From: Candidatus Aenigmatarchaeota archaeon
GTDB lineage: Archaea > Aenigmatarchaeota > Aenigmatarchaeia > PWEA01 > JACQIF01
Reading direction: 5' to 3'
Length of the DNA stretch: 64,000 nucleotides
Assembly: GCA_016432325.1 (NCBI GenBank)
Contig: CP066684.1
Location: forward strand, 352,001 to 416,000
The position numbers and the translations under genes are program-made. The notes beneath the pieces are model-generated. The model saw only the letters and a list, made by a program, of their open reading frames with translations, made no database searches and was not told where the DNA came from. This document shows, piece after piece, positions 1 through 52,913 of the stretch; position 1 is the first letter of the stretch, and each line of letters opens with the position of its first letter.

Positions 1-842
1 ACACCGCGCATCTTTATCTTCAGTTTTGTTATCTTTTCTATAGAGAGCTTGACGCGCTGGCGCTTCGCGGGCAGTCCGAAAGCCGAGCTGTCGACGGCCT
101 CTATCAACTTCGCATCGAGACCGAACACGCCCGCTACGGCAACGGCCCAATCATAGCGGTTGACGAAGTCGGAACCAACGACGTTGTATGTTCCCATCCT
201 TCCTTTATCGATAAGATCCAGAACCGCGTTTACGAAGTCAGGAATGTATGTCGGCGAGTTGTACCAGTCGCGCGGCTCGCGCACGCTCTCGCCTGCGCGC
301 ATCTTCTCGACCGCGCGCAAAACGGTGTTCGTCTTGTGCCACGGTTCCACGAGCCCGTAGGGCTGGGACGTACGAACGATGAGATGTTTGAGGCCCGACG
401 CACGCACGAGCTCCTCGCCTTTGAGTTTCGTGGCGCCGTAATAGTTTATCGCGTTAGGGATGTCATCCTCTGCGTACGCGTCCTTGGAACCATCGAAGAC
501 CGCTTCGGTAGAGACGTAGACGATTTTCGCGTTTGCCGTTTTGCAGGCGTTTATCACGTTTTCTGTTCCTTGCACGTTCACAGCATCGGCCAGCGCGCGA
601 TCCGTCTCGCACAGGTCGACGTTCGTCAATGCGCTGCAGTGCACCACGACACGCGGCTTGACCATCGATATCAGTTCAGAAACGGCCTTCGCGTCACGAA
701 TGTCCAAGGGGTGCGCGACAACTGTGCTCTGCCGCGGGTTGCGGCTCGCGTACGTGACGATGGCCTCGTCCCCCCGCGCGGCGAACGCCTTGGCCAACGC
801 GTAACCGAGCGTGCCGCTGCCTCCTGTGATGAGTACGCGCAT
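1..842 (-). CDS. dTDP-4-dehydrorhamnose reductase family (RmlD-like SDR), runs off the window
   Basis: Manual translation (not in ORF track): MRVLITGGSGTLG...ALTNVDLCE...YVSTEAVFDG...NYYGATKLKGE; Rossmann and YxxxK motifs. Confidence 0.85.
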   Translation of the reverse strand, partial: MRVLITGGSGTLGYALAKAFAARGDEAIVTYASRNPRQSTVVAHPLDIRDAKAVSELISMVKPRVVVHCSALTNVDLCETDRALADAVNVQGTENVINACKTANAKIVYVSTEAVFDGSKDAYAEDDIPNAINYYGATKLKGEELVRASGLKHLIVRTSQPYGLVEPWHKTNTVLRAVEKMRAGESVREPRDWYNSPTYIPDFVNAVLDLIDKGRMGTYNVVGSDFVNRYDWAVAVAGVFGLDAKLIEAVDSSAFGLPAKRQRVKLSIEKITKLKIKMRG

Positions 843-48563: not shown

Positions 48564-49139
48564 ATGTGGCTAGTCGACGTCTTCCACAAGATGCGGCGCG
48601 GACCTCAGATTCTGACGCAGAAGGACATAGGACTCATACTCGGGATGACAGGCGTGTCGAGCCCGTGGCGCGTGGTCGAGGCCGGCTCAGGCTCAGGCGC
48701 GCTCACGATGTTTCTGGCGAATGCAGTGCAGCCCAAAGGTCGCGTCTACTCATACGACTGGCGCAGCGAACACCAGGAGATCGCCAAGGAGAACGTCAAA
48801 CGCGCCGGGCTCACGAAATACGTGGAGTTCATTCACGGCGACATCGCCGCAGGAATCGAACAAAAGGACGTTGACATGGTTGTTCTGGATTTGGCAGAAC
48901 CTTGGCTGGTAGTGCCGCATGCCGAACGCGCACTGAAGGAAGGGAGCTTCTTCGTGTCTTACGTGCCGACGTTCGAGCAGATGAAGGAAACAGTGACGAC
49001 GCTCAGAGGCCACAGGTTCACGCGAGCGAAGGCGTACGACTATTCGATGCGCGAGTATCAAGTGGAAGAGAACGCCACGCGGCCCGAGAACATGGGCCTC
49101 GTGCACACAGGATTCCTTATATTCGCACGAAGAATCTAG
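48564..49139 (+). CDS. trmI: tRNA (adenine-N1)-methyltransferase TrmI, copy 2 (short)
   Basis: RRGPQ...KDIG, EAGSGSG, LDLAEPW, TRP...HTGFL. Confidence 0.88.
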   Translation: MWLVDVFHKMRRGPQILTQKDIGLILGMTGVSSPWRVVEAGSGSGALTMFLANAVQPKGRVYSYDWRSEHQEIAKENVKRAGLTKYVEFIHGDIAAGIEQKDVDMVVLDLAEPWLVVPHAERALKEGSFFVSYVPTFEQMKETVTTLRGHRFTRAKAYDYSMREYQVEENATRPENMGLVHTGFLIFARRI

Positions 49140-49825
49140 CCGGCCGCGTCGCCGCTTTTCATCCGCTTTCCGAGGATTTTCTTTATGTGGGGCAGCGTAT
49201 CGTCGTACACGTGCGCGCTGGTGGAGAACGTTGAAATGGCGCCGAGACGCGCTCCGAGCTTGCCCGCGACGTACTTCTGCAGGACGTACGTCTGATAGAT
49301 ATTCGCGGGCCAGCCGAAGAACATGTCGTTGCTTCTTATGAACGCAGTCGCGTTCAGGGCTCCTTCGCGCAGCTTGAAGTCGAAGGCTACTATGCCCGGC
49401 ATCTCCCGCCCGCTTGCCTGCGAATCATGCCGCGTGTCCCACGTCAGCAGAACGGCTCGTCCCGTCTCCGGACGATTCTTGAGCAACGGTATCAGAAAGT
49501 CGTCCACCTGGTTTTTGCTGTCAACGTTGAAGAGTCTGGGGCCGTATGTGTAAATGTAGTTCCTAGTTTTGCCCGTGGGCATGACGCACTCCTCTATCTC
49601 CTCCAGCGAAGGATACACCCACCTTCCCAGCGAGTTTAGGGCGGTTATCGGTTCCTCTATCCTCTTTGCAACCTGAAGGACTGTCACGAGCAGATTGAGG
49701 CAGTCTATCGAATCCCTTTGCCTGTGGTGCACCGGTTTGCCGTGCTGCATCACGTACGCGAGCACGCTCTTCCACGCCTTCAATGCGTCTTGTGATATGA
49801 TCTCCAATGGAAACGCCTCACGCAA
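49136..49825 (-). CDS. Thymidylate-synthase-like protein lacking the catalytic Cys
   Basis: YTYG.RL, NQ, RA...WD, MPGI (PC to PG), RSND, AN, SAHVY; TTG 49807 is an alternative start. Confidence 0.8.
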   Translation of the reverse strand: MREAFPLEIISQDALKAWKSVLAYVMQHGKPVHHRQRDSIDCLNLLVTVLQVAKRIEEPITALNSLGRWVYPSLEEIEECVMPTGKTRNYIYTYGPRLFNVDSKNQVDDFLIPLLKNRPETGRAVLLTWDTRHDSQASGREMPGIVAFDFKLREGALNATAFIRSNDMFFGWPANIYQTYVLQKYVAGKLGARLGAISTFSTSAHVYDDTLPHIKKILGKRMKSGDAAG

Positions 49826-51419
49826 ACGTCTGCAGATTCTTCAGTTCGCCTTTGGGCGCGTCGGCCTCGTATGCGAAGAAAGGCAGCCTGTAAGTACTCA
49901 GCAGTATGTTCACTTCTCTAAGCGCCTCCTCTGGATTTGACTCGCCTTTCTTATGCAGAGTCATCTGGAAGCCGCCGCCTAACATGTCCGACAGCAGTTC
50001 TTTCGAGCGCACGTTCTCCCGGAAGCCGTCGGAATGGAAGTCTCTGAGAGACGAAATCTCGAGACGGTCGCGGTTCAACGGAGTTGAGAAGAGACCTGCC
50101 GGCGTCGACGGGTTAACCATCGAGAAAACGGCCTGGAAGCGTGTTGGCATGCCGCACGACACGTAAATGTCCTCTTGGCTCGTGCAGAACGCGCGCGTAC
50201 GCTTGCGCATTATCCTGAAGACGCCCTCCATCACGCCCGAGTCGTACGCAGTCCGCAAGAAATCGTAGTTCCAGAAGCGTATGTAGTCCCTTGCTATCAT
50301 AAGAGCGTCCCTGCCGCCTGAGAGGTTGAGCAGGTGCTTGAAGCACGCGTCTGTCCTGCGCGCCTGCATCGAACTGGCGGAGAAGAGCGTTTTGAGAGTT
50401 CTGTGCATCAGGTCTTCAAACGCGTTGAATGAAAACTCCGCAGACTCGCAGAACTTCTTTATGTCCACCATGAGAGTCGTCTGGGCCGCGACCAGCGCCT
50501 TCGGCTGTTTGTCCAATGCCAGCCATTCCGCGTCGTCGAACGTGTAAGGCCCCGCCTTGCCCATCAAATATGGGGATTTCACAATATCCTTGTTCTTGAA
50601 GAAGACCTTCCTGGCCTTGTAGACGTTGAAGACCTCCTCGAAAAATTCGTAGTTGCCCTGAAGTTCTTTCGTGCTGGTTTCAAAGATGAACTTCACCGTG
50701 TGTTCAGCCGGAGCGTTCATCTTGAGCATCTGCAAAAGCCTCTGCCTGCCCTGCGGGCTGAGCTGCGACGGATCGACGATTACACTGAACCGGCGGTCGA
50801 AGTCCTTGCAGTCCACAAGCATCCGCTTGCAGAACTCGACCAGCTTTTCCGCCGAGTTCGCGTTGACGTGATTGGTGAAGTTGTTGACCGCGATGACGTC
50901 GTTTATCTCCGAGTAGAGGGGAGCCGCGGCCCTGTAGAGGGAAGAGAGGTCCTCCATGTCAAGCACGACGGCGTTTGCGCTGTCAAGCCAAGCCTCGCCC
51001 CCGAAACGGACGGCTATCTTCTTTTCCTCAAACGCCCCCGTGGGAAGGTTTGCGACGCGCGGCTTAGACAAAACGAGACGCCTCTTCCTATAGTCTCCGA
51101 AGACTATCTCCTCGTCCCCGTCGATGTCAAGCGCGTAGTATTTCTCGCCGCTCGTGTCCGTCCGCGTAACGCGCACCAGCTCTTTCTCGATAAGCCTGTT
51201 CAGATGGTAGAGGACGCGCCTGTGAAGCTGGGCCTTCATGCCCTTGGCCCTCCTGACTTCCTGAGGTGGCACGTATTGGCTTGTCAGGACCTTGTCTATC
51301 CTGGAGAATTCGTCTGCGTAAACGACGGAAGCAACATCCGACGTGGACATCCCTTCCTGCCTTCCCCTGAAAGCCAGCAGGACGTCTTGAGAACGCTTTT
51401 CCTTCACGATCCCCACCAA
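49818..51419 (-). CDS. Large hypothetical protein with N-terminal winged-HTH-like domain
   Basis: MSTSDVA...LHRRVLYHLNRLIEKELVRV...GEKYY; overlaps the ThyA-like gene. Confidence 0.7.
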   Translation of the reverse strand: MVGIVKEKRSQDVLLAFRGRQEGMSTSDVASVVYADEFSRIDKVLTSQYVPPQEVRRAKGMKAQLHRRVLYHLNRLIEKELVRVTRTDTSGEKYYALDIDGDEEIVFGDYRKRRLVLSKPRVANLPTGAFEEKKIAVRFGGEAWLDSANAVVLDMEDLSSLYRAAAPLYSEINDVIAVNNFTNHVNANSAEKLVEFCKRMLVDCKDFDRRFSVIVDPSQLSPQGRQRLLQMLKMNAPAEHTVKFIFETSTKELQGNYEFFEEVFNVYKARKVFFKNKDIVKSPYLMGKAGPYTFDDAEWLALDKQPKALVAAQTTLMVDIKKFCESAEFSFNAFEDLMHRTLKTLFSASSMQARRTDACFKHLLNLSGGRDALMIARDYIRFWNYDFLRTAYDSGVMEGVFRIMRKRTRAFCTSQEDIYVSCGMPTRFQAVFSMVNPSTPAGLFSTPLNRDRLEISSLRDFHSDGFRENVRSKELLSDMLGGGFQMTLHKKGESNPEEALREVNILLSTYRLPFFAYEADAPKGELKNLQTFA

Positions 51420-51434: not shown

Positions 51435-51550
51435 AACCCTGAAGCTATTTAATCCCCGTTTCAGGATAATCCTGACACAGTTGTACTTTATTCTGACACG
51501 CTGAAAACAGAAGCGCTCCGTTCAGGGTTTCGTAGTATCGTGTCAGGATA
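51435..51550. promoter_or_regulatory. Candidate operator cluster ATYCTGACAC (two direct, one inverted)
   Basis: 51469-51478, 51490-51500, inverted 51539-51550; palindrome TCAGGATAATCCTGA. Confidence 0.45.
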
Positions 51551-51595: not shown

Positions 51596-52210
51596 GTGCC
51601 AGCCGTATCAGAATCGTTTGATGCAATCGGCCTCTCCGAATACGAAGGGCGGGCATATGCTGCTCTTTTGAGGGTTCCCGAAGCCACGGGCCCGTGGGTG
51701 GCTCGCTCCTCGGGAGTGCCCCTTTCCAAAATCTACGAAGTCATGGCCCGCCTTGCAGAGAAAGGATTTGCCCTCTGCGGGCCTGACGCCAAGCCGAGAA
51801 AATACAAGGCAGTAGATCCTTCGATATCAATTGAGGCATTTGTAGAGGCCAGGAAATCGCGTCTCGAGAATGCGAAGACCCTTCTTCTCGCAAGGCTCTC
51901 CACGAAGATGTCCAGCGAGCAGGACAGGAGCATCTGGATTGTGAAGGGCCAGTACGCTGTTGAAACTCTCATGACATCGCTCATAAGGAAAGCCTCGAAT
52001 AGCGTCGTCTACAGGCATTCCTCGGACAGGAACAAATTCGTTCGCGCCAGACTCGAGGAGGTCGCTGCAAAAGGCATTGCCGTGGATTCCAAGCCGAGCG
52101 AGACGACGGCTAACCTTCTGAACGTGGACGGCCGCGAGTTGCTCGTGTACGCAAGCAAAGGCGAAGTGCTCTGGATACGCGATCCGCGCTACCTCAGGCG
52201 AGGCGAATAG
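51596..52210 (+). CDS. TrmB family transcriptional regulator
   Basis: GLSEYEGRAY.ALL, SGVP.SKIYEV...L..KG, PRKYKAVDP. Confidence 0.88.
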   Translation: MPAVSESFDAIGLSEYEGRAYAALLRVPEATGPWVARSSGVPLSKIYEVMARLAEKGFALCGPDAKPRKYKAVDPSISIEAFVEARKSRLENAKTLLLARLSTKMSSEQDRSIWIVKGQYAVETLMTSLIRKASNSVVYRHSSDRNKFVRARLEEVAAKGIAVDSKPSETTANLLNVDGRELLVYASKGEVLWIRDPRYLRRGE

Positions 52211-52241: not shown

Positions 52242-52913
52242 ATGGTCTTTGGAACGCTCAAGAAACTGGTCGGGGGCAAGAAGGAACCGCAGGGCCCGCC
52301 TGTCAGGCCTATCCTCGAATCCAGACCGAGACATCTTCCCCCCGAAGCCGCGCGCATACCCACGCTCGAAGACATTCCCGGCATGCAAGGCCCTCCTGAA
52401 ATTCCTGAGCCTCCTCTGACGCCTTCCATGCAAGGACGGTTTGGAACAACAGTTCCAGAGCCTCCCATGGCTCCTACAATGCAGGGATTGCGTGGAACGC
52501 TTGGCTCGGAATCCCAAATGGCGCCGCAGTCCTCTCCTTTCGAAACGTCTTCTGCAGAACCTCCTTTGCCACCGCAGATGGAGGAACGCAGGAAGCAGAG
52601 AATCGAAACGTTCAGGCGTTCGCGCGAACCGCTTCAATGGCCGCCTCCCCCGGAAGGGAGGTTCGGAACAGCTGTTCCGATGGTCGCGTCAGCGCCTTCA
52701 TCGGAATGGGCTCCGACTCCTTCTCCTGTCACACCACCACAGCAGTGGCCTGCCCCGCAGCAACAGGCTCCGCCCGAACGTCTGCAAAGACGACCGCAAA
52801 CGGTCGAAGGAGGCCTCGCAACAGTCATAGACCATCTCGATCGCATCGAGCAGAGGATAATCGATCTGGACAGGCGGCTCGCGATGTTGGAGAGCGCGGC
52901 AAGGATACGCTAG
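52242..52913 (+). CDS. Proline-rich protein with C-terminal coiled coil
   Basis: Internal repeats PEPP..P.MQG and GRFGT.VP; heptad C-terminus. Confidence 0.7.
   Translation: MVFGTLKKLVGGKKEPQGPPVRPILESRPRHLPPEAARIPTLEDIPGMQGPPEIPEPPLTPSMQGRFGTTVPEPPMAPTMQGLRGTLGSESQMAPQSSPFETSSAEPPLPPQMEERRKQRIETFRRSREPLQWPPPPEGRFGTAVPMVASAPSSEWAPTPSPVTPPQQWPAPQQQAPPERLQRRPQTVEGGLATVIDHLDRIEQRIIDLDRRLAMLESAARIR

What the first reader, a model, noticed from the sequence alone, without database searches (positions are those of the whole stretch)
49136..51419. Catalytically disabled ThyA-like protein coupled to a 533-aa wHTH protein: candidate nucleotide-sensing regulator
Seen: the ThyA fold keeps RSND, the dUMP-specifying Asn and H-x-Y, but the nucleophile motif PC is PG (GGC at 49394-49396) and RR is GR. 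It overlaps the stop of a large unknown protein with an ArsR-like wHTH. The pair is divergent from a TrmB regulator. Established: the Cys is essential in ThyA and dNMP hydroxymethylases. Inference: a pseudo-enzyme sensing dUMP, dTMP or folate for a transcriptional or defence module.
Basis: partly seen in the sequence, partly recalled or inferred. Interest (0 to 1): 0.72.

Follow-up and report, generated by a model that had tools for sequence, protein, structure and literature searches.

The report
Cysteine-less ThyA paired with RNR-like regulator
A tiny DPANN archaeon carries a tightly linked gene pair encoding look-alikes of the two key DNA-precursor enzymes (ribonucleotide reductase and thymidylate synthase) that both lack their catalytic cysteines; one carries a DNA-binding domain, a conserved DNA palindrome sits on the pair's own promoter, and the pair most likely senses or binds nucleotides in an undescribed way.

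Summary
Observation confirmed. ORF 49136-49825(-) is a compact archaeal-type ThyA-fold protein (PF00303; model pLDDT 89; Z 20-23 to ThyA, MilA and a flavin dCMP hydroxylase). It has Gly144 where the nucleophilic Cys belongs. In 69 species-level relatives this residue is G/S/A, never C, while the dUMP-binding residues persist.

The upstream 533-aa ORF is more than a wHTH protein. Residues ~100-530 fold as a ribonucleotide-reductase-type ten-stranded barrel (Z 24.8 to NrdD). It shows no detectable sequence similarity to RNRs and has no cysteine in the finger loop.

The two genes are adjacent in 69 of 70 genomes. This genome has a separate ThyX and RNR, as do nearly all carriers.

New here: a palindrome TCAGGA-N3-TCCTGA beside the TATA box is conserved upstream of the pair (47-54 of 70 loci, about 150-fold over other non-coding DNA). 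It is present whether an Lrp-like or a TrmB-like regulator lies opposite, and it is unique in this genome.

Best reading: a nucleotide-binding complex without the canonical chemistries that autoregulates its own operon. An enzyme with new chemistry is not excluded.

I found nothing on this pair in the papers searched. Earlier notes of this scan describe the same pair in at least five other genomes.

The parts
49818..51419 (-). Gene 1: 533-aa protein, winged helix fused to an RNR-type ten-stranded alpha/beta barrel. The likely true start is GTG at 51407, where 87% of homologues begin.
   Evidence: ORF. No Pfam or NCBIfam hit. AlphaFold model pLDDT 83.9, pTM 0.72. Foldseek E 1e-8 to NrdD. VIA Z 24.8 over 386 residues to 9d3x NrdD. 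Family of 238 clusters at 50% identity.
51120..51419 (-). Winged helix-turn-helix domain (residues 1-100). Recognition helix LHRRVLYHLNRL; wing G91-E-K93.
   Evidence: VIA Z 8-9.2 to Z-alpha, IclR, MarR and Fur-type winged helices. L65, H66, R67, L70, Y71, L76, G91 and K93 are 86-97% conserved in 183 sequences.
50499..50591 (-). Finger-loop hairpin of the barrel (residues 277-307). The tip is G287-K-A-G290-P-Y292 and there is no cysteine in the whole loop.
   Evidence: The hairpin lies between the fifth and sixth barrel strands of the model. Its position was mapped with the range 146..523 <-> 26..426 of phage S-CBP4 RNR, in which C30, C185 and C196 are the catalytic cysteines (PMC9531940). G287 100%, G290 98%, Y292 96%.
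50265..50279 (-). Conserved motif R381-F-W383-N384-Y at the end of barrel strand G.
   Evidence: R381 98%, N384 93%.
50145..50159 (-). Conserved motif S-C422-G423-M-P425 between strands G and H. It holds the only highly conserved Cys of the family (96%).
   Evidence: Seven of 183 members have V, A or S instead.
49136..49825 (-). Gene 2: Cys-less ThyA-fold protein (229 aa from TTG 49825, or 223 aa from TTG 49807 with a GAGG Shine-Dalgarno).
   Evidence: PF00303 54.8 bits. TIGR03283 111 bits, below the 174.55 cut-off. Model pLDDT 88.8. VIA Z 23.4, 22.2 and 20.5 to 9iqc, MilA and ThyA.
49394..49396 (-). Codon GGC = Gly144, at the position of the ThyA nucleophile Cys146 (E. coli numbering).
51461..51475 (.). 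Perfect palindrome TCAGGATAATCCTGA, the candidate operator. It abuts the TATA-like box of the pair's promoter.
   Evidence: It is the only exact TCAGGA-N3-TCCTGA in the 875-kb genome. The same palindrome type lies upstream of the pair in 47-54 of 70 other genomes.
51446..51453 (-). TATA-like box ATTAAATA of the pair's promoter (inferred).
   Evidence: Read from the sequence. No transcript data.
51540..51549 (+). Extra half-site GTGTCAGGAT, facing the TrmB-like gene. A further GTGTCAG half-site lies at 51493-51499 (-).
   Evidence: The 10-mer occurs 4 times in the genome, 2 of them in this 176-nt spacer.
51596..52210 (+). Divergent TrmB-family regulator gene (204 aa).
   Evidence: PF01978 58.2 bits. 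The closest relative locus L004 has the same neighbour. Most Nanoarchaeota loci have an Lrp/AsnC-like gene there instead.

Best explanation
This is a two-gene operon that encodes a nucleotide-binding complex built from paralogues of ribonucleotide reductase (RNR) and thymidylate synthase. Neither protein can carry out its family's canonical reaction.

Gene 1 joins a winged helix to an RNR-type barrel. The finger loop of that barrel has Gly-x-x-Gly where the thiyl-radical Cys should be. Gene 2 is a compact archaeal ThyA fold that keeps the phosphate-binding and uracil-binding residues of the dUMP site. It has Gly (Gly, Ser or Ala in all relatives) for the nucleophile, Ala/Gly at the position of folate-contact residue F176 of E. 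coli ThyA, and usually Phe for the 3'-OH-binding Tyr.

I propose that the two proteins assemble and bind a pyrimidine (deoxy)nucleotide, and that the winged helix docks on the conserved palindrome TCAGGA-N3-TCCTGA next to the operon's TATA box. Expression of the pair would then respond to that ligand.

Shown: both folds, loss of the catalytic residues across the family, strict gene pairing, conservation and uniqueness of the palindrome, and the presence of ordinary RNR and ThyX elsewhere.

Inferred: complex formation, the ligand, which protein binds the palindrome, the sign of regulation, and the physiological output.
For: - **ThyA side.** Gly144 replaces Cys. The position is G/S/A in 70/70 sequences. 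Y94, R127', P145, R166, S167, D169, N177 and H207 (E. coli numbering) are kept. The remaining changes are C146->G/S/A, F176->A/G and Y209->F in 62/70. Residue 144 is always small, which argues for a pocket that is still occupied rather than for drift.
- **RNR side.** VIA Z 24.8 to NrdD and Z 18-21 to class I, II and O RNRs. Foldseek E 1e-8. No Pfam or PDB sequence hit. The finger hairpin 277-307 has no Cys. There is no conserved C-terminal glycyl-radical motif.
- **Pairing.** 69/70 species-level loci have the ThyA-like gene directly downstream on the same strand. In the Nanoarchaeota sample, 35/35 genomes with gene 1 also have gene 2 next to it.
- **Not the housekeeping enzymes.** This genome has a tandem ThyX and two PF02867 RNR matches. 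Among the 35 carriers, 34 have a canonical RNR and at least 30 have ThyX or a Cys-type ThyA.
- **Operator.** TCAG-N7-CTGA occurs at 3.49 per kb upstream of the pair against 0.023 per kb in other non-ORF DNA of the same loci. The spacer is 7 in 61 of 69 sites. The window's site is the only exact one in the genome and the only promoter-located one.
- **Who binds it.** The same palindrome is present whether the divergent gene is Lrp/AsnC-like or TrmB-like. Changes in the winged-helix wing (KGEK to KNEK or NKEK) go with loss of the palindrome, in 7/15 loci without it against 1/54 with it.
Against: - No ligand, complex or DNA binding has been shown.
- Many polar residues of the barrel are 90-100% conserved (D174, N276, D319, R381, N384, C422, E474, E502). 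That would also fit an active enzyme.
- The palindrome is commoner where an Lrp-like gene lies opposite (41/46 loci) than where none does. The neighbouring regulator could therefore be the binder.
- No other promoter in this genome carries the palindrome, and carrier genomes hold no more sites than non-carriers. A pure regulator would then have no target beyond itself.
- The mapping of the finger loop rests on secondary structure and aligned ranges, not on a residue-level superposition.
Confidence: 0.5

Rival explanations
1. The pair is a real enzyme with non-canonical chemistry (a 'trigger enzyme' that also autoregulates). It would do a Cys-independent, perhaps flavin- or metal-assisted, transformation of a pyrimidine nucleotide in the remodelled ThyA pocket, or a non-radical reaction in the RNR-like barrel. 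The winged helix would only tune the operon's expression.
For: The barrel has many invariant polar residues. The ThyA pocket is intact apart from the nucleophile. The operator appears to serve only the pair's own promoter, as with PutA- or BirA-type enzymes (the comparison is from my own knowledge). The ThyA fold was recently shown to support flavin-dependent hydroxylation (9iqc, Z 23.4; PMC13326640). From established knowledge, ThyX makes dTMP without an enzyme nucleophile.
Against: Every characterised ThyA-family enzyme, the flavin-dependent 5-hydroxy-dCMP synthases included, keeps Cys146 (PMC13326640). No universally conserved substitute nucleophile exists: Cys39 of the ThyA-like protein is present in 60/70 and absent in the window, and C422 of the partner is present in 176/183. 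No cofactor-related gene is conserved nearby.
Confidence: 0.28
2. Split active site: the nearly invariant Cys422 (SCGMP loop) of the RNR-like protein reaches into the ThyA-like pocket and supplies the missing nucleophile in trans.
For: The pattern is complementary: Cys is lost in one partner and 96% conserved in the other. Residue 144 is always small, and the residue at the position of E. coli F176 shrinks to Ala/Gly, which would make room. ThyA active sites already borrow R126'/R127' from another subunit (established knowledge).
Against: Seven of 183 family members have V, A or S at 422 while all other motifs are intact. In L026 both partners lack the Cys (KSVGMP in the partner, PG in the ThyA-like protein).
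Confidence: 0.07
3. The palindrome is the operator of the divergently transcribed small regulator (TrmB-like here, Lrp/AsnC-like elsewhere). The winged helix of the RNR-like protein has another role, such as protein contact or binding of another nucleic acid. This rival concerns only the binder and is compatible with either functional reading above.
For: The palindrome lies in the shared divergent spacer. 41/46 loci with an Lrp-like neighbour have it, against about half of those without. Distances among the Lrp-like genes track those of the pair (r 0.85). The window has extra half-sites nearer the TrmB-like gene.
Against: Two unrelated regulator families (Lrp/AsnC and TrmB) would have to recognise the same 15-17-bp palindrome. 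At least eight loci keep the palindrome without an adjacent Lrp-like gene. The only DNA-binding domain common to all loci is the winged helix of gene 1, whose recognition helix is 86-97% conserved.
Confidence: 0.3
4. The pair is an anti-virus defence or counter-defence module, or a decaying remnant of RNR and ThyA genes.
For: Nucleotide-pool enzymes and their look-alikes are used in several defence systems (general knowledge). Distribution is patchy: 35/151 Nanoarchaeota genomes and 1/201 genomes of the window's own phylum.
Against: There is no meaningful PADLOC match and no relative in IMG/VR contigs. The flanks are housekeeping genes (ArgS, GTPase, tRNA methyltransferase). The pair is single-copy with intact ORFs, and strong purifying conservation extends over 238 clusters.
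Confidence: 0.04

Closest known systems
Archaeal/methanogen-type short thymidylate synthase (NCBIfam TIGR03283; MJ0757 type) and the Cys-containing fused ThyA of the window's own phylum
   Same: Best sequence relatives (31-37% identity over the whole domain). Same compact ThyA fold. Shared motifs YxYG, SRR, IRSND, GWPxN and SAH.
   Different: Those proteins have P-P-C and the window family has P-G/S/A. The score is below the equivalog cut-off (111 against 174.55 bits). F176-equivalent is Ala/Gly and Y209 is mostly Phe. The window family is always paired with the RNR-like gene, and a separate ThyX or ThyA is present in the same genomes.
Class III (anaerobic) ribonucleotide reductase NrdD (PDB 9d3x, 8p23, 4u3e) and minimal class O/Id RNR alpha subunits (7urg, 6dqx)
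   Same: Ten-stranded alpha/beta barrel with a central finger hairpin. Z 24.8 and 24.5 to NrdD, 21.5 to class Id and 19.9 to class O.
   Different: No detectable sequence similarity. No finger-loop Cys, no redox Cys pair, no glycyl-radical tail and no ATP cone. A winged helix sits at the N-terminus. The barrel is much shorter (about 430 residues).
Flavin-dependent 5-hydroxy-dCMP synthases of phages (ThyA homologues; PDB 9iqc; RB69 gp48, DLP3 gp80; PMC13326640)
   Same: Best structural match of the ThyA-like model (Z 23.4, rmsd 2.4, 205 residues). Similar compact size. They show that the ThyA fold can use a cofactor other than folate.
   Different: They keep Cys146 and carry N177D and D169N. 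The window protein has Gly144, N175 and D167.
Transcription factors whose sensor is an enzyme-derived domain, and DNA-binding enzymes that autoregulate (NrdR with its ATP cone, MocR/GabR, NrtR, PutA, BirA)
   Same: A DNA-binding domain is fused to a fold taken from the pathway it presumably monitors. A palindromic operator sits on its own promoter.
   Different: No known example uses an RNR barrel as the sensor or needs a ThyA-fold partner. The comparison rests on recalled knowledge and on inference, not on a test.
Catalytically inactive RNR large-subunit homologues of herpesviruses (M45, BORF2; PDB 7rw6)
   Same: The RNR barrel is kept for a non-reductase, binding role. 7rw6 matches at Z 17.3.
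   Different: Those are viral proteins of animals with clear sequence similarity to class Ia R1. They have no wHTH and no ThyA-like partner.

Membership tests
Thymidylate synthase ThyA (EC 2.1.1.45, PF00303) | ThyA fold and Pfam family score | tested here: met
   PF00303 54.8 bits against a cut-off of 24.3. Model Z 20.5 to Brucella ThyA, 193 residues, rmsd 2.5.
Thymidylate synthase ThyA (EC 2.1.1.45, PF00303) | Nucleophilic Cys (E. coli C146) in the P-C motif | tested here: not met
   Gly144 in the window. G 43, S 17, A 9, C 0 in the family. Aligned to E. coli C146 and to the P-P-C of archaeal ThyA.
Thymidylate synthase ThyA (EC 2.1.1.45, PF00303) | dUMP-binding residues R166, S167, D169, N177, H207 and Y94 | tested here: met
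   R164, S165, D167, N175, H205 and Y94 are each conserved in 63-69 of 70 sequences.
Thymidylate synthase ThyA (EC 2.1.1.45, PF00303) | Arg pair R126'/R127' from the partner subunit | tested here: inconclusive
   The window has G122-R123. 62/70 relatives have R-R.
Thymidylate synthase ThyA (EC 2.1.1.45, PF00303) | Equivalog score for the methanogen-type TS (TIGR03283) | tested here: not met
   111.2 bits against a cut-off of 174.55.
Thymidylate synthase ThyA (EC 2.1.1.45, PF00303) | dTMP synthesis activity or thyA complementation | not testable with these tools
   Needs a bench assay. The genome has a separate tandem ThyX.
Ribonucleotide reductase catalytic subunit (classes I-III) | Ten-stranded alpha/beta barrel with a central finger loop | tested here: met
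   Z 24.8 over 386 residues at rmsd 3.5 to 9d3x. Z 18-21.6 to class I, II, Id and O. Foldseek E 1.4e-8.
Ribonucleotide reductase catalytic subunit (classes I-III) | Thiyl-radical Cys at the tip of the finger loop | tested here: not met
   Hairpin 277-307 holds no Cys and its tip is G287-K-A-G290. The mapping uses strand order and the S-CBP4 ranges and residue numbers, not a residue-level superposition.
Ribonucleotide reductase catalytic subunit (classes I-III) | Sequence-family membership (PF02867 or PF13597) | tested here: not met
   No Pfam or NCBIfam hit at E 0.01. The family profile finds no RNR in the PDB even at E 10.
Ribonucleotide reductase catalytic subunit (classes I-III) | Radical source (C-terminal glycyl-radical motif, AdoCbl pocket or beta subunit) | tested here: inconclusive
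   There is no conserved Gly motif in the C-terminal tail and no activase or beta-subunit gene is conserved nearby. Cofactor binding cannot be tested.
Flavin-dependent 5-hydroxy-dCMP synthase (ThyA homologue, PDB 9iqc) | Diagnostic residues Cys146, N177D and D169N | tested here: not met
   The window has G144, N175 and D167. The criteria come from PMC13326640.
Winged-helix transcription factor | wHTH fold with a conserved recognition helix | tested here: met
   Residues 1-100 give Z 8-9.2 to Z-alpha, IclR and MarR domains. The LHRxxLYHLN helix is 86-97% conserved.
Winged-helix transcription factor | Specific binding to a cognate operator | tested here: inconclusive
   A conserved palindrome lies on the pair's own promoter. 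The binder is not identified, and the neighbouring TrmB/Lrp-like regulator is an alternative.

The most novel reading that the evidence does not exclude
The pair is an active enzyme complex that performs an undescribed, cysteine-independent transformation of a pyrimidine nucleotide. That would make it a third way, beside ThyA and ThyX, of using these folds, or the first non-radical chemistry in an RNR barrel. The complex would also switch its own operon through the fused winged helix.
Probability: 0.2. Interest if true: 0.92.

Novelty: new variant of a known kind. Interest (0 to 1): 0.76.

Why it matters
RNR and thymidylate synthase are among the best-studied enzymes, and both are defined by a catalytic cysteine.

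- **A new kind of family.** Here a whole protein family (238 clusters at 50% identity) keeps the RNR barrel without any detectable RNR sequence signal and without the radical Cys, fused to a DNA-binding domain. It is always partnered with a ThyA fold that has lost its nucleophile but kept its nucleotide pocket.
- **Annotation.** Public records that call gene 2 'thymidylate synthase' are probably wrong. This changes metabolic reconstructions of DPANN archaea, whose dependence on hosts for nucleotides is a central question.
- **If it is a sensor.** It would be the first nucleotide-responsive regulator built from these two enzyme folds.
- **If it is an enzyme.** The chemistry would be new.
- **Testability.** The conserved palindrome gives a concrete handle: binding assays with and without nucleotides.

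Tried and rejected
- **Private mutation or sequencing error at Cys.** Rejected: the change is family-wide.
- **Sole thymidylate synthase or sole RNR of the organism.** Rejected: ThyX and RNR are present here, and in 30 or more and 34 of 35 carriers respectively.
- **Cys422 of the partner as a trans nucleophile.** Weakened by 7/183 exceptions and by L026, which lacks both cysteines.
- **A relocated Cys inside the ThyA-like protein.** Cys39 is present in 60/70 sequences. The window and L004 have Cys42 instead, and 8/70 have neither.
- **A wider regulon.** Only the pair's own promoter carries the site in this genome. Carriers and non-carriers hold equal numbers of TTCAG-N7-CTGAA, 2.2 against 2.1 per genome. 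In G201, one site lies 76 nt upstream of an NT5C-dCMP deaminase pair next to nrdDG. It is a single case and may be chance.
- **Defence or virus origin.** No meaningful PADLOC hit and no relative in IMG/VR.
- **Sequence link of gene 1 to RNRs.** None by Pfam, NCBIfam, a PDB profile search or the 1.8-billion-protein profile search. No fused or longer forms were seen.
- **ESM Atlas.** Its own model is poor (pLDDT 0.42) and uninformative.
- **Mirror-tree comparison.** r 0.88 for the pair against 0.85 and 0.78 with the Lrp neighbour. Not discriminating.
- **N-terminal alignment to E. coli ThyA.** Unreliable. I make no claim about R21, E58, W80 or W83.
- **Literature.** Four searches found nothing on this pair.


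Full report
**1. Observation**

The minus-strand ORF 49136-49825 (229 aa) matches Pfam Thymidylat_synt (54.8 bits, cut-off 24.3). It also matches the methanogen-type TS model TIGR03283, but only at 111 bits against a cut-off of 174.55.

- E-M-P143-G144, with GGC at 49396-49394;
- G122-R123;
- R164-S165-N166-D167;
- N175;
- H205-V-Y207.

The 533-aa ORF 49818-51419 ends 8 nt inside the ThyA-like ORF if the TTG at 49825 is the start. A TTG at 49807, preceded by GAGG, fits the homologues' N-termini better. Either way the two genes are tightly coupled. A TrmB-family gene (51596-52210) is divergent from them.

**2. The Cys loss is a family trait**

Sixty-three homologues at 38-53% identity come from Woesearchaeota, Nanoarchaeota and similar MAGs. 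In an alignment of 27 of them, and in 69 species-level genomic copies, the residue after the invariant Pro is G (43), S (17) or A (9) and never C.

I aligned the family with E. coli ThyA and with six Cys-containing archaeal ThyA domains from the window's own phylum. In E. coli numbering:
- **Kept:** Y94, R126'/R127' (R-R in 62/70; G-R in the window), P145, R166, S167, D169, N177 and H207.
- **Changed:** C146 to G/S/A, F176 to A/G, and Y209 to F in 62/70.

The nucleotide pocket is therefore preserved while the catalytic centre is remodelled. Position 144 is restricted to small residues. The N-terminal third does not align reliably to E. coli ThyA, so I make no claim about R21, E58, W80 or W83.

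The AlphaFold model (pLDDT 88.8) matches three structures best:

| PDB | Protein | Z | rmsd | Aligned residues |
|---|---|---|---|---|
| 9iqc | flavin-dependent dCMP monooxygenase | 23.4 | 2.4 | 205 |
| 5jnh | MilA | 22.2 | 2.2 | 206 |
| 3ix6 | ThyA | 20.5 | 2.5 | 193 |

The 5-hydroxy-dCMP synthases keep Cys146 and carry N177D and D169N (PMC13326640). The window protein meets none of these criteria.

**3. The partner is an RNR-fold protein**

The 533-aa protein has no Pfam, NCBIfam or PDB sequence match. Its model (pLDDT 83.9, pTM 0.72) gives these matches:
- Foldseek E 1.4e-8 to Thermotoga NrdD.
- VIA Z 24.8 (386 residues, rmsd 3.5) to S. thermophilus NrdD.
- VIA Z 18-21.6 to class I, II, Id and O RNRs.
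- VIA Z 12-16 to glycyl-radical enzymes.
- For residues 1-100, Z 8-9.2 to winged helices.

The model has five strands (148-153, 172-178, 210-215, 242-248, 271-276), then a hairpin (277-307), then five more strands. This is the RNR topology, with the finger loop between the two halves (PMC9531940).

The aligned range 146..523 <-> 26..426 of phage S-CBP4 RNR places that enzyme's catalytic residues as follows:

| S-CBP4 residue | Structural element | Model position |
|---|---|---|
| C30 | strand A | about 150 |
| C185 | finger tip | about 290-296 |
| C196 | strand F | about 308 |
| Y420/Y421 | strand J | about 517 |

The hairpin has no cysteine. Its tip, G287-K-A-G290-P-Y292, is the most conserved part of the family (G287 100%, G290 98%). 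The C-terminal tail has no conserved Gly-radical motif.

Other highly conserved residues are D174, N276, D319, R381-x-W-N384, C422-G-x-P425, E474 and E502. C422 lies between strands G and H, not on the finger loop, and is replaced by V, A or S in 7 of 183 members.

**4. Pairing and distribution**

A profile search of 1.8 billion representatives finds 238 clusters. All are about 500-545 aa or fragments. None is fused to another domain and none bridges to true RNRs.

In the GTDB species genomes, 70 loci encode the RNR-like protein. In 69 of them the ThyA-like gene follows on the same strand within -6 to +182 nt (one at 499 nt). The seventieth contig ends 20 nt after gene 1.

In a sample of 151 Nanoarchaeota genomes, 35 carry gene 1 and all 35 have gene 2 beside it. 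In the window's own phylum, only this genome among 201 has it. A second Aenigmatarchaeota MAG (L004, 58% identity) turned up in the species set.

On a midpoint-rooted FastTree, the window and L004 form a long branch nested inside the Nanoarchaeota diversity. Support is 0.6-0.99 along the path. This suggests transfer between DPANN lineages, but the rooting is uncertain.

No relative was found in IMG/VR viral contigs, and there is no meaningful PADLOC match.

**5. Not the housekeeping enzymes**

The 875-kb genome (90% complete) has a tandem two-domain ThyX ORF and two PF02867 RNR matches, and no NrdD.

Among the 35 Nanoarchaeota carriers:
- 34 have a class I/II or class III RNR. Only G211 has none.
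- At least 30 have ThyX or a Cys-type ThyA. None was found in G303, G329, G333 and G335. G271 has only a weak PF00303 match below the family cut-off, apart from its paired copy.

The pair is therefore an addition to the canonical enzymes, not a replacement.

The 176-nt spacer holds a perfect palindrome TCAGGATAATCCTGA (51461-51475), directly upstream of a TATA-like ATTAAATA (51446-51453, minus strand). It also holds further half-sites: GTGTCAGGAT at 51540-51549 and GTGTCAG at 51493-51499.

This is the only exact TCAGGA-N3-TCCTGA in the genome. Of the 19 TCAG-N7-CTGA sites in the genome, it is the only one that lies in a promoter.

The same palindrome type recurs upstream of gene 1 in other genomes, for example TTCAGGAAAATCCTGAA and TTCAGGACAATCCTGAA:
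- 47 of 70 loci carry it exactly.
- 54 of 70 carry it when the flipped CTGAA-N-TTCAG arrangement is included.
- The spacer is 7 in 61 of 69 sites.
- Density is 3.49 per kb, against 0.023 per kb in other non-ORF DNA of the same loci.

The divergent neighbour is Lrp/AsnC-like in most Nanoarchaeota loci. It is TrmB-like in the window and L004, and probably TrmB-like in L022 and L051, judged from their N-terminal motif although Pfam gives L022 no hit. The palindrome is the same in all these settings.

The one DNA-binding domain common to every locus is the winged helix of gene 1. Its recognition helix LHRxxLYHLN is 86-97% conserved.

Loci without the palindrome often have a changed wing, KGEK to KNEK or NKEK (7/15 against 1/54; Fisher 4e-5). 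Related loci are not independent, so this test overstates the case.

Against this reading, the palindrome is also commoner where an Lrp-like gene lies opposite (41/46). The neighbouring regulator therefore remains a candidate binder.

**7. No wider regulon was detected**

Carriers and non-carriers hold similar numbers of TTCAG-N7-CTGAA sites, 2.2 against 2.1 per genome. Extra sites in five carrier genomes are mostly inside genes. One site in G201 lies 76 nt upstream of an NT5C-dCMP deaminase pair next to nrdDG. It is suggestive, but it is a single case.

**8. Mechanism**

- **Best-supported reading (confidence about 0.5).** The two proteins form a nucleotide-binding complex that cannot do canonical RNR or TS chemistry. 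The winged helix docks on the palindrome next to the TATA box, so that the operon is autoregulated in response to a pyrimidine nucleotide.
- **Main rival (about 0.28).** A genuine enzyme with unknown, Cys-independent chemistry that also autoregulates. The many invariant polar residues of the barrel and an operator that serves only the pair's own promoter both fit this.
- **Split active site through C422 (about 0.07).** Weak, for the reasons given in section 3.
- **Defence module or gene decay (about 0.04).** Unlikely.

**9. Comparison with what is known, and novelty**

The closest sequence family is the archaeal short ThyA (TIGR03283). Membership as a thymidylate synthase fails on the nucleophile and on the equivalog score. 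The closest fold for gene 1 is NrdD. Membership as an RNR fails on sequence family and on the finger-loop Cys.

By analogy it resembles transcription factors with enzyme-derived sensor domains, or autoregulating enzymes such as NrdR, MocR, PutA and BirA. That comparison comes from recalled knowledge and was not tested.

Four literature searches found no description of this pair.

Earlier notes of this scan describe the same RNR-like/ThyA-like pair in at least five other genomes. I reached the fold assignment independently before reading them. One of those notes is flagged 'part of it fell', and I could not see which part.
- the palindromic operator with its statistics;
- the co-occurrence table with canonical RNR and TS;
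- the position and exceptions of C422;
- the pocket changes F176 to A/G and Y209 to F;
- the comparison with the flavin-dependent ThyA homologues;
- the nested position of the Aenigmatarchaeota copy.

Noticed in passing
G000:C1:296508-297878 (outside the window): ThyX is encoded as a tandem fusion, with two Thy1 domains in one 529-aa open frame. The same two-domain form (about 450-630-aa frames) recurs in many Nanoarchaeota genomes.
   Followed up: no
G000:C1:308022-312210 (outside the window): Two full-length PF02867 RNR matches lie 1 kb apart, in 1009-aa and 653-aa open frames. They may be two RNR genes or an intein-containing arrangement, and they sit about 10 kb from thyX.
   Followed up: no
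L076-L081 (genomes G063, G125, G070, G106, G042, G034 of the window's phylum): The Cys-containing ThyA of Aenigmatarchaeota is a 470-560-aa fusion. It has an N-terminal domain of about 190 aa (WPxFYxxxLxxGN...CTLWT) and a C-terminal extension of about 90 aa ending in KEGKxFVQDxA. Neither extra domain was identified here.
   Followed up: no
L087:1305-5999 (G201:C1:1379804-1384498): A gene string nrdD - radical-SAM activase - NT5C-type deoxynucleotidase - dCMP deaminase carries a TTCAGGACATCACTGAA palindrome 76 nt upstream of the nucleotidase gene. This is the same operator type as on the RNR-like/ThyA-like promoter.
   Followed up: partly
Loci L008, L010, L011, L014, L015, L018-L020, L025, L034: The Lrp/AsnC-like gene opposite the pair is often present in two or three copies within a few kb (131-aa and about 155-aa forms).
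   Followed up: no
window 52242-52913 (+): A 223-aa proline-rich ORF with repeated PPxxxP and MQG motifs lies just downstream of the TrmB-like gene. It was not examined.
   Followed up: no
L064 (DASPMU010000096.1); L007, L009, L013 and others: Several public records holding the pair are titled 'Alphaproteobacteria bacterium' or 'uncultured Methanosarcinales archaeon', although the locus is of the Woesearchaeota/Nanoarchaeota type. These are probably mislabelled or mis-binned MAG contigs.
   Followed up: no
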